DNA of 64,000 bases from Diadema antillarum. Taxonomy: Eukaryota. The stretch spans positions 620,001-684,000 of the forward strand of contig NW_027272137.1 in the NCBI RefSeq assembly GCF_040938485.1, written 5' to 3'. The position numbers were made by a program. Positions within the stretch are counted from its first letter, which is position 1. Each line of letters begins with the position of its first letter. Shown here piece after piece: positions 12,001 through 55,500 of the stretch.

Positions 12001-15000
12001 AATTTCTGGAAGGGAAATTGCTTTGATTTTCTGCAACTACGATTCATATGACATTACTGTATCATTCGTTATTCATAGTGCTCATTTACTGACTCATATC
12101 ATTTCTCTTTTGTACATAAATAGCCGCTCGTTTGATGATTATTTTGATATAAGAGATGTTTTGTGCATGAGGCCTCTTTAATCCAGTCCCACATGTTTAT
12201 ATTGGGCTGTGTGAAAGTTAGGATGAATGGGGTTGCTCGCGCAGCTCGCAGCAGCTAGCTGGCACTGATATGATCTCTGCATTCTGTACAGCGTAAGCCA
12301 TTCACATTGCACAATTGGTAACTGTGGACCTTGGTAGAAGAGGACTCTGGCTAGCCTCTTGTTGCACACGAAGAGAAGTTTTCTTTTCCAACTAGCTACA
12401 TTTGTAGGGTTGGTCGTAACTACAGAAGTGAGTGTAGCTTAATCTGTTAGTCATTCGTAGGTAGGTCCTTGAAATTATGTAATTTGAGCAAGAGATGATT
12501 CATCGAAGGTTAGCATGGTTAGGAAGGGACTGAATATTATGAACTCTGTGTGTGTTGTACCGGTACTTGTATTGTAATTTGTAGAGTCTGCTCATTACTA
12601 ATATCATGTCATTAGACAATGTCTACATTAGCCCGACCAGACGCTGTTAATACGCTGTGCGAATAACTGGGCTGTGTATAGTTATGTCTACCTGTGTTAT
12701 TAATCAAGATAGGGGCACAGTGCCACATCTTCATGATTTTGAAGAAAACAAAGTGCATGATTGCCCTAGACTGCATGTATAGGGTTAGTTAGAACCATAA
12801 TAAATCATGGCTAATGGCTATCAATTGGTCGAATTTTAAAGTCCAATTGCTGGGCCCTGAGTTGAATTGGGAAGTAATTGATGAATTTATGCATTTTTGG
12901 ATTTTGGAATGTGTTTCAGAACTGCATCAATCAAGATTAGGCATAGAAACTACTAGACCTCTCAAACGTTTTCCGTGTATACGTTACTGTAGCCTTTGAT
13001 GCGAGGCAGAGGTGACTGTCTATTGGCTAACCGTTTCCTCTAACTGACACAAAATGCTGGGGGGGGGGGGGTTGTTATGTCTTTTTTTTTTTTTTTTGCT
13101 TCCAGGAAAAAAAAAAAAAAAAACATTCATTAAGATGTAACTCGTACCGTAGAAATGGAAACTTGGCTAATTTCATTGGCAGTCATGTGTAGAGGTAGAC
13201 CAATAAATCTGCCTCTTGTCGGGTAGCCTCTTGTTAACTGTATTTATACGGTCGCAAATGCAGTCGACCGTATTACAGACTGTACAGATACAATTAGGCT
13301 ACCGAACAAGAGACAAATTTATCGGTCTAACCAGTTAGTGTAGATACTAAGATAGACACAGCCCCGTCCTGTACACAAGAGGTATAATATTTCTACAATT
13401 GTAACAAGTATAGGTCTAACTAATTTGTTAGGTTTTTCTAATTTGTTGTGAATGCATGATATATTTATAATGGATAGGCATGCATTAATATTCATGGGTA
13501 AGCAGCTAAGAAGATAACACAGGCAAGAAAGGATTGGTAGAAATATAATTGATTTCCAAAGTCCAGATACATGTAGATTACATAGCTCTTTATGAGCTAA
13601 AATTTTGGTTTAACTTAACAGTTCAAACTAGAATTCTATATCAGTACATTTGTAGGTAGGGATCTATTTTTATGACTATTTTTAATTTGGACCATTGTTC
13701 AGTGAATAGTGTAGGAGTAGACCATCTACGAAACTAGTGATTCTCTAGTTTGTTAAAAATACTGCCATCTCACTCCGGATAAGATAAAGTGGAAGAAATT
13801 AATGAATATTAGAGAGTTGATTATGCTTTTGAAATTCCCATTTTGAATTTAAGTCTGACTCTACGCATGGCTTCGGGCCATGCGTAGAGTTACGCAGGAC
13901 TTGGTGGGATTTACGCATGACTTAAGCTTTGTGAAACAGGATTCAAAGTCCTGCGTAAATTTACGCAGGACTTAGGGATTTACGCAGGGTTTGGGGATTT
14001 TGTGAAACACCCCCCCCCCCCCCCCCCCCCCCCGGTATACCCCAGCCCCGGCCGCACCTTGCACCCCGGCCCCGTCCCGTACAGTCTGTGGATTCCAAAC
14101 CTCTCTGCATCTCTGCAATCACTTCCCGCCGCGGCATGCTGCTAGAAGAAGCCTAGAACAACTATCATCTGCCACGAAAATTCACACATCGTTACCACTT
14201 TTCGCAAGGTCGACAATTTTTATATCATTTCATTCATTTGGTACCCCGTGAAATAACTATAAACTGTCATTTTAAGACTTACCTTTCCTTTACCTGTTCG
14301 AAACTAGGGACGCGGAATGTTTACTCTCGAAAAGCGGAACCGGAAGCCTAGGTCAAGGGTTGCCTGTTAATGTTTCGTGTTCAGTGCAGTCACTGATGAG
14401 AGGTCAGTGAGTGCAGTGCTTGGTTGTGCAGCAGTGCAGTGTGGCTGGCATGCAATACACAGCGAGTGTAAGCGAGGATGATGTGGAACTCCTTCTGCCA
14501 CGTTTGACAAACCACTGAAGCCGCGGTACGCGAAAATGGTGAGTGTGTTACTGATTTTCTTGCTTTCATAACATATTTCGGTCACATGAAGTTTTTCATT
14601 GTTTTTGTACATGTTGTGTATAATTCTGATAATCACTGTGCATGTTAGAGAAATTAATCACACTAAGATTCAGTCTGTCTTGAACGAAGAAACATGTTGA
14701 AGTTCCTCTGCCGGTGCACTCCACTCACTGTGCTAACATAGACACAGCACAGTCCGATACATGTAATTGAGGCGTGGGCTTCAATAATTCTGTTGATCGC
14801 AGAGAAAGAGACCCTGTAAGACAGATTAAATTGAGTTATGTGGTTTATTTTGAGGATTTGTGCAGAGTGCATTTGTCAATTCGATCTTTTTTATGTGTAG
14901 TGTCTATGTCAGTTCGGGAAACCCACTCACAAGGGGGGCCCCTCCTTATAAGTAACCCGTCCCCCTTATAAGTAACCCCGTCCCCCTTATAAGTAACCCC

Positions 15001-52500: not shown

Positions 52501-55500
52501 GTGTGTTATTTTTTAGTCACTTTTTAGTGCACTATTTCTGGTCAAAGAAGATGATATCAGAATATCACAGCATTCGTGATATCAGACTTAAGGGATGATC
52601 CATTATCATTCATTTGCAACATTATGCGTGTACTTGTTTTCACCTTGCATAAGTATGGTGAGAGGGCAAATTGGAATTTGACTATACCAATGACATGGAC
52701 CACTTTGAAATGGGAAGTCGATTTAAGACGTGCTGTCAAGAAAATAAGGATGATGAAAAAGACAAGACTGACGAGGTGTAAGGTTATACATGGCGTAATT
52801 CAGTTTAGACGAAACAGAGAAAATATTGATGCTTGTGTTTTTGTGAAAGTATTGGATATTTTGTGAGATGCTTTCCACTTGAAATATACATTTCATCATT
52901 AATGTTTCATGAACACCCTTGCAGTGTAATGATATGCTTGGGGAGATAAGTTAAGTATGAATGTGATTATCAGCGCCGCAGCTAACAATATCATTGTAAT
53001 TTCTGGATAAAGTGAGAAGGTAACTATTGCTTTTCACCAATTTGTGGAAATACTAGGAAGAAATAAGATACTAAGAGTTACGATGTTGGTAATCTTGATG
53101 AAAGAAAAAGAGAAGAAAGGCGGCTATTTACTGACTTCCTAAGTAGACTCCACCGAGAGGAAGACCGTCGTTGCGTCTCATACTCGAGTATCCGCTCAGT
53201 AAGCCGCTGGAGTAGACACCGGCGAGATCGTTCTCCTCGTAGCTCGAGGTCGAACTGGAGATCGACAACGAGGAGCTCTGGGCCAACCCGACGCCGACAG
53301 ACGAGATAAAGCCAGAGTTGTGAGAACTGGGCTGAAACTGAGAGTAGGTGGGTGAGTACTGGGACGGCACGGTTGGCATCAAGGCCCGGGAGGTCGCCGG
53401 GGGAGGCGAGGCCGTCATCTGCCCGTAGGAGGACGGCTGGGGTGGCTGGTGAGGAGACGGTACGGGTGGGGGTGGCGGTGGTGGACACATACTCCAGCTG
53501 CTACCGTACTGCAGACAGCGAGAATAGGGCGAGTAGCCCCCCTCAGTCATGTATGAACGATCGATGATCGCGATTGGACGATGAGGACGGCGAAGTCTTC
53601 TTCGTCGTCGGTAGTTCCCCTTCTCAAACATGTCGTCGTAGGCAGGGTCAAGCGTCCAGTAGTTTCCCTTTTTCTCCCCACCACCTTCCCGTGCGATCTT
53701 GATGAAGCACTCGTTCAGGCTCAAGTTGTGACGGATGGAATTTTGCCAACCTTTCTTGTTCTTCTCGTAATAGGAGAATTTGTTGATGATGTACTGGTAG
53801 ATCTGACTTAAGGTAAGTTTTCGGTCAGGCGAATCCTTTATTGCCATGGCAATAAGAGCCACGTAAGAATATGGCGGCTTTTGGGCGGGATCTGGTTTGT
53901 CGTCGTCTGCGTCTTTATCTGTCTCTTTCTTGTCCACTCCCTTGTTATTGTCTGCCGTGTCCTCGGTCTGTACGCTGCGGTTGCTAAGAATGGGGGAGCC
54001 GGATTCCGTCGGCCTGGTTGACGATATGATCACGGCATCACCTCCCGCCATTCTCTGACCAACAGACGAAAGACCAGTTAGCTGACATTGTTGTGTGGTT
54101 CTAGAGGAAGGGCCGTCTTGTTGGAGGTGCAAAGCGTAGTGTTTACTGTCATCTCGACCTGAAAAATAGTCAGCCTTCTCGTGGACCATTGACGAGAAAT
54201 TCAACTCGCTGGCAGAGGTAGGCGGCGGGACTTCGGTCGGGACGTGGCAGGCGATAAGAAGACCCGATCCGTGGACGTCCACTGCTTCCGTCGCATCAGC
54301 TTTACTCAAGCTCCCGTAGCCTTCTCCGATCGGATGTTGAGAGCTGGTACCCGGAGCGATCGGCTGGAAAGCGCCGTGAATTCGATGATAGTAACTTTCC
54401 ATATCACACACTGGAGAGTGAGAGAGAAGATGAGGAATAAGGGAGGTTAATCCATAGAAAAATGAATTATTACTTTAGAAGTGTCGATATTCTGACCTAT
54501 CACATAAACGACTAAACTGACCGTTGCTGATCGGTGCTGTAATATAGTTCATAGACCAAGACAAGATACTTTGCGATAAGTTGACAATCAACTTGAATAT
54601 TCAATCTAAAGGAGTGATGAAAGCCATATCATAAATCTGGAAATTAAATGTTTTTATAGGTACCCCTTATAGGTGGAAATCAAATCAAGAAAATACAAAT
54701 TAAAATACACTAACCACAGTGACTTAGGTAGGATTTGTTCGCATGAACTCAACCTATGTCCCATTCTTAAACAATGGTGCACCTGTTGAGTGATGTATCT
54801 TTCAATTTCATCGCTTTCAGCAATCGTTAGCTCCCATAATATGGAAATTCCATTAATAATATTCATTATCAGGAGAAGGGTGAAATAGAATGAATATTGT
54901 GTGCGAAAGCTTTGGTAAAATGCCTCTTAGGTGCTTCGTAATTCAAATCAGGGAGGATTTATCTGGTATGATTATCATTATTAACCGCCATGGTATCAGG
55001 GAGACGTATGCGTATAACAAGATAGTCATGATAGTTGCTCTATTTAGAGTGTTAATTATACATTTATATGTGACAAATTTACAACAACGATAAAGAAAAT
55101 ATAGAATATTCAGAAGAAAAATAAAATGGAAGCTGTCTACAAAATACTTCATCTTTGTCTTAAACTTCCCAAAGATTTGCCTGTAGCTATTGCATCGATT
55201 GCAGTGTCACGTTAATATTGTTTTGAATTTCAAAACAGTATGAGCATGGCTTAGGTATAAACGCTAGTGCATAGATTTGGATGCAAAGGCGCCACTTCAT
55301 GAAGATTGGTCGAAAGGTCGCGAATTGGAAAAAAGTTAGCACTAATATTTACAATGTCTTCACAGCGGAACATACACTAATTTCTATCATTAATTTCATT
55401 CATTAACATGAGATGATTACTGAACGGAAGAGAAAGGCACTGTGTAGGAAAGTGAAAATTAGACATTAACTTTTCTTTCGAGTCGTTTTCAAAACATCAA

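What the first reader, a model, noticed from the sequence alone, without database searches (positions are those of the whole stretch)
14536..54402. FoxL2 directly adjacent to COPB2: candidate ancient genomic regulatory block
Seen: COPB2 and FoxL2 are immediate, convergent neighbours 12 kb apart. Known: in human 3q22.3-q23, FOXL2 lies a few hundred kb from MRPS22-COPB2-RBP2-RBP1, the linkage is kept in other vertebrates, and long-range FOXL2 regulatory deletions on that side cause BPES and goat polled-intersex syndrome. Inference: the pair has been linked since at least the deuterostome ancestor, as expected when enhancers of a developmental transcription factor sit in or near a bystander housekeeping gene. 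Relative orientation differs from human (tandem there), which implies a local inversion with linkage retained.
[Added by the scan's program, not by the reader: the finding's places include an assembly gap (unread letters, written N; its length is only estimated) at 29838 to 30050, 43987 to 44435. Whether the letters on both sides are continuous or in frame is not known: test that first.]
Basis: partly seen in the sequence, partly recalled or inferred. Interest (0 to 1): 0.65.

Follow-up and report, generated by a model that had tools for sequence, protein, structure and literature searches.

The report
Sea-urchin FoxL2 beside COPB2
In this sea-urchin-like genome piece the ovary transcription-factor gene FoxL2 sits tail to tail, 12 kb from the housekeeping gene COPB2, a neighbourhood also kept in vertebrates, but nothing here shows that shared gene switches hold the two together.

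Summary
COPB2 (23 coding exons, 14536-40982, + strand) and a single-exon FoxL2 (53128-54402, - strand) are convergent, with 12,145 bp between their stop codons. No protein family was detected between them.

The first gap (29838-30050) lies inside COPB2 intron 14. The exons on either side are consecutive and in phase, and no residue is missing. The second gap (43987-44435) lies in the spacer, and its join could not be tested here.

The ancient-linkage reading is partly supported. Papers place copb2, mrps22 and foxl2 together in fish, frogs, chicken and goat. FoxL2 and COPB2 share a contig length in 5 of 10 species that could be compared (two sea stars, a clam, an annelid, a skate). That shows the same chromosome or scaffold, not adjacency.

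The regulatory-block reading is untested, and two features of the window lean against enhancers inside COPB2. Its introns are short (median 728 bp, longest 3.7 kb). Its body is CpG-depleted (0.46), whereas FoxL2 sits in its own undepleted block of about 11 kb (45-56 kb, 0.96) that stops short of COPB2.

This is an ordinary conserved-synteny pair of modest interest. No eukaryotic genome collection was available for a microsynteny or non-coding conservation survey.

The parts
14536..40982 (+). COPB2 (coatomer beta') coding span. The 23 coding exons are 14536-14538, 18247-18267, 18675-18791, 19420-19506, 19931-20057, 20927-21075, 21910-22056, 22774-22873, 23276-23418, 23828-23927, 26246-26345, 26921-27031, 28764-28852, 29635-29741, 30398-30541, 31072-31202, 31795-32002, 33362-33472, 35979-36193, 38141-38233, 38972-39149, 40012-40077, 40782-40982.
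   Evidence: tblastn with P0121, splice-site and phase arithmetic, Pfam B-prop_COPA_B_2nd and TPR_COPA_B on single exon pieces. Exon 17 alone is 97% identical to L. variegatus beta'-COP.
29838..30050 (.). Assembly gap 1, inside COPB2 intron 14 (29742-30397)
   Evidence: The flanking exons 14 and 15 are consecutive, phase 0, with no reference residue missing (junction 12).
15001..18000 (.). CpG-undepleted island in COPB2 intron 1 (CpG o/e 0.98)
40983..53127 (.). Spacer between the two stop codons, 12,145 bp, with no gene detected
   Evidence: Pfam scans of all stop-to-stop ORFs of at least 33 aa gave single weak hits only. Interspersed repeats are present.
43987..44435 (.). Assembly gap 2, in the spacer; the join is untested
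45001..56000 (.). CpG-undepleted block around FoxL2 (CpG o/e 0.96, or 0.91 without the coding sequence): about 8 kb on the 3' side of FoxL2, the gene itself, and about 1.6 kb on its 5' side
   Evidence: The best 10-kb window of the whole 64 kb starts at 46001 (0.98).
53128..54402 (-). FoxL2 coding sequence, single exon, 424 aa plus stop
53623..53883 (-). Forkhead DNA-binding domain (residues 174-260)
   Evidence: Pfam PF00250, 3.5e-38. PDB FOXL2 7vou scores 197 bits against 135 bits for the next hit, FOXC2.

Best explanation
The window is an echinoid locus with the order TMEM107 (-), COPB2 (+), FoxL2 (-). The COPB2-FoxL2 adjacency is a kept piece of an ancestral linkage that vertebrates also retain (FOXL2 ... 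MRPS22-COPB2-RBP). COPB2 behaves as an ordinary, broadly expressed, gene-body-methylated housekeeping gene. FoxL2 behaves as a tissue-restricted regulator sitting in its own compact unmethylated domain of about 11 kb. Most of that domain is the half of the spacer nearer FoxL2. My preferred mechanism, which is inferred and not shown, is that FoxL2's cis-regulatory DNA fills the spacer up to the edge of COPB2. Breaks between the two genes would then be selected against, and COPB2 stays linked as the gene bounding the FoxL2 domain rather than as a host of FoxL2 enhancers. Shown: gene identities, structure, adjacency, the CpG pattern, and same-contig linkage in other phyla. Inferred: the methylation state, the regulatory content of the spacer, and selection on the linkage.
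For: Gene models. FoxL2 orthology: about 76 of 86 named hits among the best 120 carry a FoxL2 label (my hand count). PDB FOXL2 scores 197 bits against 135 for FOXC2. In the tree the window is sister to Lytechinus pictus (100/99) inside an echinoderm clade (99/98), within a 24-row FoxL2 group (93/94). No gene was detected in the spacer. CpG o/e is 0.46 over 18-45 kb, with TpG 1.26 and CpA 1.33; COPB2 exons give 0.38 and introns 2-22 give 0.48. The 45-56 kb block gives 0.96, and GpC is about 1 throughout. Vertebrates: copb2 is called the upstream gene of foxl2 in silver arowana, and Hi-C contacts are reported there (PMC11776183, passages). Foxl2 microsynteny including Mrps22 is conserved in anurans (PMC12467463, passages). 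Chicken and goat association regions list FOXL2 with MRPS22 and RBP2, and in chicken also COPB2. The human FOXL2 promoter contacts fragments 177, 283 and 360 kb upstream (PMC2689649, passages).
Against: No conservation of non-coding sequence, chromatin or methylation data could be examined. CpG o/e is only an indirect record of germline methylation. The undepleted block also holds a young foldback or TIR element (arms 48430-48511 and 49372-49453, 99% complementary) that has had little time to lose CpG. Five of the 10 comparable species did not share a contig length. Haliotis rubra (501,483 vs 1,359,082) and Ruditapes philippinarum (56,515 vs 501,854) are fragmented assemblies. In Clupea harengus the two lie on different chromosome-sized contigs. 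The Branchiostoma hybrid (19,726,665 vs 19,354,923) and Lampetra fluviatilis (13,312,722 vs 13,477,503) are ambiguous. Sharing a chromosome is expected for any pair on one ancestral linkage group and says nothing about adjacency. The spacer holds an unverified scaffold join. COPB2 lies 3' of FoxL2 here, whereas the arowana paper calls copb2 the upstream gene of foxl2 and the mapped human elements are upstream, so homology of the regulatory DNA is not implied.
Confidence: 0.4

Rival explanations
1. Neutral retention. The two genes were neighbours or near neighbours in an ancestor and have simply not yet been separated in slowly rearranging lineages. No regulatory constraint links them.
For: COPB2 has none of the intron features reported for bystander genes: 22 introns, median 728 bp, longest 3708 bp. 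Irimia et al. 2012 report that bystanders average 2.7 introns over 10 kb (PMC3514665, passages). FoxL2 and COPB2 lie on different scaffolds in Haliotis rubra and Ruditapes philippinarum, and on different chromosome-sized contigs in Clupea harengus. The gene on the other side of COPB2, TMEM107, is not among the FOXL2-region genes named in the vertebrate papers read.
Against: Papers place foxl2 and copb2 in one neighbourhood in vertebrates, and here they are adjacent in an echinoid. Close linkage kept on two such long separate lineages is unlikely for an arbitrary pair; I did not compute that probability. The FOXL2 side facing MRPS22/COPB2 carries long-range elements in human.
Confidence: 0.3
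2. Classical genomic regulatory block. Enhancers of FoxL2 lie inside COPB2 introns, so the bystander cannot be moved away.
For: The pair has the right make-up, a developmental transcription factor beside a many-intron housekeeping gene. Irimia et al. 2012 say their ancient blocks typically involve families such as Fox (PMC3514665, passage pointing to Supplemental Table S4, which I could not open). In arowana ovary a female-specific region contacts foxl2 and, more weakly, copb2.
Against: COPB2 introns are short, and introns 2-22 are CpG-depleted (0.48) like the exons (0.38), as in a methylated gene body. The only undepleted part of COPB2 is its own 5' intron 1, 35 kb from FoxL2. The reduced human critical region is described as devoid of known genes, so it is not inside COPB2 (PMC2689649).
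Confidence: 0.15
3. Assembly artefact. The scaffold join at 43987-44435 is wrong, and FoxL2 and COPB2 are not adjacent in the animal.
For: The gap lies exactly between the two genes. Its flanks share no overlap and no bridging repeat, so nothing in the window proves continuity.
Against: Both flanks end in the same degenerate ATGATG-type low-complexity sequence in the same orientation, as at gap 1, whose join is verified by the COPB2 exons. The two genes lie on one 3.75-Mb scaffold in Acanthaster planci and on one 17.1-Mb contig in Asterias amurensis, and in one neighbourhood in vertebrates.
Confidence: 0.08

Closest known systems
Vertebrate FOXL2 - PISRT1 - MRPS22 - COPB2 - RBP2/RBP1 - NMNAT3 neighbourhood (human 3q22.3-q23; BPES and goat PIS regulatory deletions)
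   Same: FoxL2 and COPB2 are in one neighbourhood. The FOXL2 flank facing MRPS22/COPB2 carries long-range regulatory DNA in human (contacts at 177, 283 and 360 kb; PMC2689649). copb2 is the gene next to foxl2 on one side in silver arowana (PMC11776183).
   Different: Here the genes are 12 kb apart rather than hundreds of kb (the human distance is recalled, not checked). No MRPS22 was detected in the window. The orientation is convergent, so COPB2 is 3' of FoxL2, whereas the arowana paper calls copb2 the upstream gene of foxl2. The tandem orientation in human is recalled. No PISRT1-like RNA could be looked for.
Genomic regulatory blocks and conserved ancient microsyntenic pairs (Kikuta/Engstrom 2007 as cited in, and Irimia et al. 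2012, PMC3514665)
   Same: A trans-dev transcription factor next to a functionally unrelated, multi-intron, broadly needed gene, with linkage seen in distant lineages.
   Different: The bystander's introns are short and CpG-depleted. No conserved non-coding elements or enhancers were demonstrated. Adjacency outside this window and vertebrates is not shown.
Mosaic invertebrate methylation landscape (methylated housekeeping gene bodies, unmethylated regulator genes)
   Same: COPB2 body CpG o/e is 0.46 with TpG/CpA excess, and its 5' end is spared. FoxL2 and its surroundings are about 1.0.
   Different: This is inferred from sequence composition only. No methylome of this animal was examined.

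Membership tests
FoxL2 orthology group | Forkhead (winged-helix) DNA-binding domain | tested here: met
   Pfam PF00250, 3.5e-38, residues 174-260, full profile 1-88.
FoxL2 orthology group | Closer to FoxL2 than to other Fox classes | tested here: met
   PDB: FOXL2 7vou 197 bits and 7vov 177 bits, against FOXC2 135 bits and all others lower. About 76 of 86 named hits among the best 120 are labelled FoxL2, and none FoxL1 (hand count). The tree places the window in a 24-row FoxL2 group (93/94), apart from rows labelled FoxE3, FoxD3 and FoxB1, with echinoderm (99/98) and echinoid (100/99) placement. No true FoxL1 outgroup was available.
FoxL2 orthology group | Intronless coding region (recalled as typical of FOXL2) | tested here: met
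   A single open frame of 424 codons from ATG to stop. That this is typical of the family is recalled, not tested.
COPB2 (coatomer beta') | WD40 propellers, second COPA/B beta-propeller and COPA/B TPR domain in order | tested here: met
   Tested exon by exon: WD40-type hits (19928-20080), B-prop_COPA_B_2nd (29601-29750 and 31060-31230), TPR_COPA_B (31745-32029).
COPB2 (coatomer beta') | Colinear full-length match to named beta'-COP rather than alpha-COP | tested here: met
   Residues 1-919 of L. variegatus beta'-COP are accounted for in order. Exon 17 is 97% identical. The named hits I read in the 120 listed are coatomer beta'/COPB2, hypothetical or unnamed entries.
Genomic regulatory block | Developmental regulator next to an unrelated bystander gene | tested here: met
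   FoxL2 and COPB2 are 12,145 bp apart with no gene detected between them.
Genomic regulatory block | Bystander with extensive, long introns | tested here: not met
   22 introns, mean 1077, median 728, longest 3708 bp. This was compared with the criterion in PMC3514665.
Genomic regulatory block | Conserved non-coding elements in the bystander or spacer | not testable with these tools
   No eukaryotic genome collection was available. The contig collections on offer are bacterial/archaeal or closed.
Genomic regulatory block | Enhancers in the bystander that act on the target promoter | not testable with these tools
   This needs ATAC/ChIP, 4C/Micro-C and reporters. Indirectly, COPB2 introns 2-22 are CpG-depleted (0.48).
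Conserved ancient microsyntenic pair | Adjacency, or very few intervening genes, in several distant phyla | tested here: inconclusive

The most novel reading that the evidence does not exclude
FoxL2-COPB2 is a bilaterian-old regulatory block. On this reading, the CpG-undepleted spacer between the two genes in the urchin is the compact functional counterpart of the vertebrate FOXL2 long-range landscape whose deletion causes BPES and goat PIS. COPB2 marks the same domain boundary in both. An 11-kb urchin interval would then give a tractable model of FOXL2 long-range control and of how FoxL2 is wired into gonad somatic cells across animals.
Probability: 0.15. Interest if true: 0.6.

Novelty: new member of a known kind. 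Interest (0 to 1): 0.3.

Why it matters
FoxL2 is a conserved marker of ovarian somatic cells and a recurrent sex-determination gene, and its long-range regulation is clinically relevant (BPES). If the linkage to COPB2 is held by regulatory DNA, a compact invertebrate locus could reveal ancestral FoxL2 enhancers. If it is only retained synteny, it is one more of the hundreds of ancient gene pairs already catalogued. In the paper searches I made (foxl2+copb2, copb2+microsynten, foxl2+microsynteny, foxl2+genomic regulatory block, foxl2+synteny+amphioxus, foxl2+coatomer) no paper reports the pair for an invertebrate. Closed supplementary tables may list it.

Tried and rejected
I did not repeat it.

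I scanned ORF by ORF instead.

3. The Pfam scans of 390 ORFs in the flanks and spacer gave only single weak hits apart from TMEM107: GHD 0.0079, THSD1_N 0.0092, MAX_effector 0.0073, DUF6693 0.0079, Defensin_RK-1 0.00026, Dishevelled 0.0006. I treated these as chance, given the number of ORFs. No MRP-S22 hit was found.

4. I looked for a repeat or an overlap bridging gap 2 and found none.

5. Rfam at gathering threshold found only two tRNA-like matches, which belong to a repeat family.

6. A possible last exon at 62533-62664 reminded me of an EF-hand-domain protein C-terminus (recalled). The Atlas (recognition below the useful range) and PDB (best E 0.33) gave no support. The representative search gave 7 short hits at E 2e-5 to 1e-3 and no name. 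Its identity is left open.

7. Beysen et al. 2005 (PMC1224524) is not held.

8. The poly(A)-signal scan is pattern matching only and was not used as evidence.

9. The joined COPB2 coding sequence or protein was deliberately not assembled or searched. Searches used single exons and a named reference protein.

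
Full report
What is in the window. The 64-kb window has 39% G+C, an overall CpG o/e of 0.58, and two runs of N, at 29838-30050 and 43987-44435. 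Three genes are recognisable:
- TMEM107 on the - strand. Its Pfam PF14995 pieces lie at about 10313-10441, 8125-8229 and 7293-7391.
- COPB2 on the + strand.
- FoxL2 on the - strand.

No further Pfam family was matched by more than one ORF in 1-14.5 kb, 41-53.1 kb or 54.4-64 kb. I scanned 258 ORFs of at least 50 aa and 132 ORFs of 33-49 aa in the spacer.

COPB2. I did not build or search a joined coding sequence. The model was worked out exon by exon. A single exon (31796-32002, 69 aa) found coatomer beta' proteins, the best being Lytechinus variegatus at 97% identity. Single exon pieces hit the Pfam families B-prop_COPA_B_2nd and TPR_COPA_B. tblastn with the named L. variegatus protein (P0121, 919 aa) gave a colinear chain covering residues 9-919.

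The first eight residues are split. An ATG at 14536-14538 is followed at once by a GTGAGT donor, and a 21-nt exon at 18247-18267 encodes PLRLDIK. The final model has 23 coding exons, all with GT..AG borders, and 2748 nt (915 codons plus stop at 40980-40982). No exon has an in-phase stop. The 22 introns are short: mean 1077 bp, median 728 bp, longest 3708 bp, which is intron 1.

FoxL2. One open frame, 53128-54402 on the - strand, encodes 424 aa with a complete forkhead domain at residues 174-260 (Pfam 3.5e-38).
- Its best named relatives are an automatically named Lytechinus pictus protein (55% identity over 93% of the query), then sea-star and sea-cucumber FoxL2, then FoxL2 of vertebrates, molluscs, an annelid and amphioxus.
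- By my hand count, about 76 of the 86 named hits among the best 120 carry a FoxL2 label, and none a FoxL1 label.
- Against solved structures, FOXL2 scores 197 bits and the next class, FOXC2, scores 135 bits.
- In a maximum-likelihood tree of 27 rows the window's protein is sister to L. pictus (100/99). It sits inside an echinoderm clade (99/98), within a 24-row FoxL2 group (93/94) that excludes the rows labelled FoxE3, FoxD3 and FoxB1.

The window therefore comes from an echinoid, and the gene is its FoxL2 orthologue. I did not try to name the species or record.

The gaps. Gap 1 lies in COPB2 intron 14 (29742-30397). The donor after 29741 and the acceptor before 30398 are canonical and in phase 0, and no reference residue is missing (junction 12). 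The two sides are therefore correctly ordered, oriented and in frame.

Gap 2 lies in the spacer between the two genes, where there is no reading frame to test. The 2-kb flanks share no similarity, and no repeat copy elsewhere in the window bridges them. Both sides end in the same degenerate ATGATG-type low-complexity sequence, as does the left side of gap 1. That fits an unassembled minisatellite inside continuous DNA, but it does not prove continuity. The adjacency and the figure of 12,145 bp between stop codons rest on this join and on an estimated gap length.

Is the linkage old? No eukaryotic genome collection was available, so I used an indirect fingerprint. Ten species had a named FoxL2 and a named COPB2, both with a contig length.

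The lengths are identical in five:
- Acanthaster planci, 3,751,176
- Asterias amurensis, 17,110,720
- the clam Mya arenaria, 76,804,856
- the annelid Owenia fusiformis, 62,201,769
- the skate Leucoraja erinacea, 55,766,668

They differ in five:
- Haliotis rubra (501,483 vs 1,359,082) and Ruditapes philippinarum (56,515 vs 501,854), both fragmented assemblies.
- Clupea harengus (30,477,381 vs 25,664,052). As a teleost it may carry duplicated paralogues, which is recalled and not tested.
- The Branchiostoma hybrid (19,726,665 vs 19,354,923) and Lampetra fluviatilis (13,312,722 vs 13,477,503), where near-equal lengths may be two haplotypes or assemblies.

This supports linkage at chromosome or scaffold level back to the protostome-deuterostome ancestor. 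It is also what any pair on one ancestral linkage group would show, and it gives no distances.

For vertebrates I read passages, not whole papers:
- Silver arowana: copb2 is called the upstream gene of foxl2, and Hi-C contacts between a female-specific region, foxl2, pik3cb and copb2 are reported (PMC11776183).
- Anurans: Foxl2 microsynteny including Mrps22 is conserved (PMC12467463).
- Goat and chicken: association regions list FOXL2 with MRPS22 and RBP2, and the chicken region also lists COPB2 (PMC11218382; PMC12138415).
- Human: COPB2 is at 3q23 (PMC8455385).

Is it a regulatory block? Irimia et al. 2012 (PMC3514665, passages) list four predictions for a genomic regulatory block. [quoted passage not shown] The first is met. 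The second is not, since no COPB2 intron exceeds 3.7 kb. The third and fourth could not be tested.

The window does carry one informative signal. CpG is strongly depleted over several stretches:
- TMEM107 and the left flank, o/e 0.46.
- 18-45 kb, o/e 0.46. This stretch is the COPB2 body after intron 1 plus the first 4 kb of the spacer. COPB2 exons give 0.38 and introns 2-22 give 0.48.
- 56-64 kb, o/e 0.38.

In these stretches TpG and CpA are in excess and GpC is normal. Two stretches are not depleted. One is COPB2 intron 1 (15-18 kb, 0.98). The other is a block from about 45 to 56 kb (0.96, or 0.91 without the FoxL2 coding sequence). That block contains FoxL2, about 8 kb on its 3' side and about 1.6 kb on its 5' side.

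In most invertebrates methylation concentrates on the bodies of constantly and highly transcribed genes (abstract of PMC11292947 as listed). The simplest reading is that COPB2 is a methylated housekeeping gene and FoxL2 sits in its own unmethylated domain, which ends about 4 kb short of the COPB2 stop codon. This is inference from composition. It is also weakened by a young inverted-repeat element inside the block.

In human, the FOXL2 promoter contacts fragments 177, 283 and 360 kb upstream, and the reduced critical region is described as devoid of known genes (PMC2689649, passages). So even there the mapped elements lie in the interval before the bystanders, not inside COPB2.

Conclusion. 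The linkage is very probably ancestral. The cause of its retention is open.

I favour a FoxL2 regulatory spacer bounded by COPB2 (0.4) over neutral retention (0.3). A classical block with enhancers in COPB2 introns (0.15) and a wrong scaffold join (0.08) come after these. None of the searches I made found the pair reported for an invertebrate. Supplementary tables of microsynteny studies, which I could not open, may list it. As one more conserved pair among the hundreds catalogued, it is of modest interest unless a survey and chromatin data show constraint.

What stayed unchecked:
- distances between the two genes in any other invertebrate
- non-coding conservation
- methylation and chromatin state
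- continuity across gap 2
- the supplementary tables
- the closed metagenome and viral contig collections

Noticed in passing
window 7293-10441 (- strand): A TMEM107 gene lies head to head with COPB2, about 4.1 kb from the COPB2 ATG. Three exon pieces match Pfam PF14995: profile 1-43 at about 10313-10441, 47-81 at about 8125-8229, and 79-111 at about 7293-7391.
   Followed up: partly
window 39351-39567 and 43390-43602 (also inverted at 43230-43349): A repeat family has copies about 95% identical. Each copy contains a tRNA-like segment (Rfam tRNA at 39395-39467 and 43441-43498; ARAGORN calls tRNA-Thr at 39394-39468). It is probably a tRNA-derived SINE rather than working tRNA genes. One copy is in a COPB2 intron and one is in the spacer.
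   Followed up: partly
window 25210-26224: A tandem array with a 65-bp period and up to 99% identity between copies fills much of COPB2 intron 10. GpC o/e drops to 0.55 in that 2-kb window.
   Followed up: no
window 14909-15566; 36839-37205; 28036-28389; 48430-49453: Several near-perfect inverted repeats (arms of 82-284 nt, 85-99% complementary) look like foldback or MITE-type elements. Three are in COPB2 introns and one is inside the CpG-undepleted block 3' of FoxL2.
   Followed up: no
window 62533-62664 (- strand): A 44-codon charged, coiled-coil-like frame ends in a stop and is preceded by a pyrimidine tract and CAG, so it looks like the last exon of a gene extending beyond the window, about 8 kb upstream of FoxL2. 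It has 7 short relatives (58-67% identity, E 2e-5 to 1e-3) in the representative library, so it is probably a conserved exon. Its family is not identified: a recalled likeness to an EF-hand-domain protein C-terminus found no support.
   Followed up: partly
window 57413-57722, and the flanks of both gaps (29800-29837, 43940-43986, 44436-44500): Degenerate CATCAT/ATGATG-type minisatellites occur upstream of FoxL2 and at both assembly gaps. This suggests that this repeat class is what broke the assembly.
   Followed up: partly
window 5825-6499 (+), with inverted copies at 5943-6085 and 6259-6401: The longest non-genic open frame (224 aa) has no Pfam match and overlaps an inverted duplication. It is probably a degraded mobile element.
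   Followed up: no
and one search hit lists: Many percomorph and other teleost entries named coatomer beta'-like are 1,175-1,350 aa long, some 250-400 aa longer than ordinary beta'-COP (about 905-950 aa). This hints at a fish-specific extended paralogue or fused gene models.
   Followed up: no
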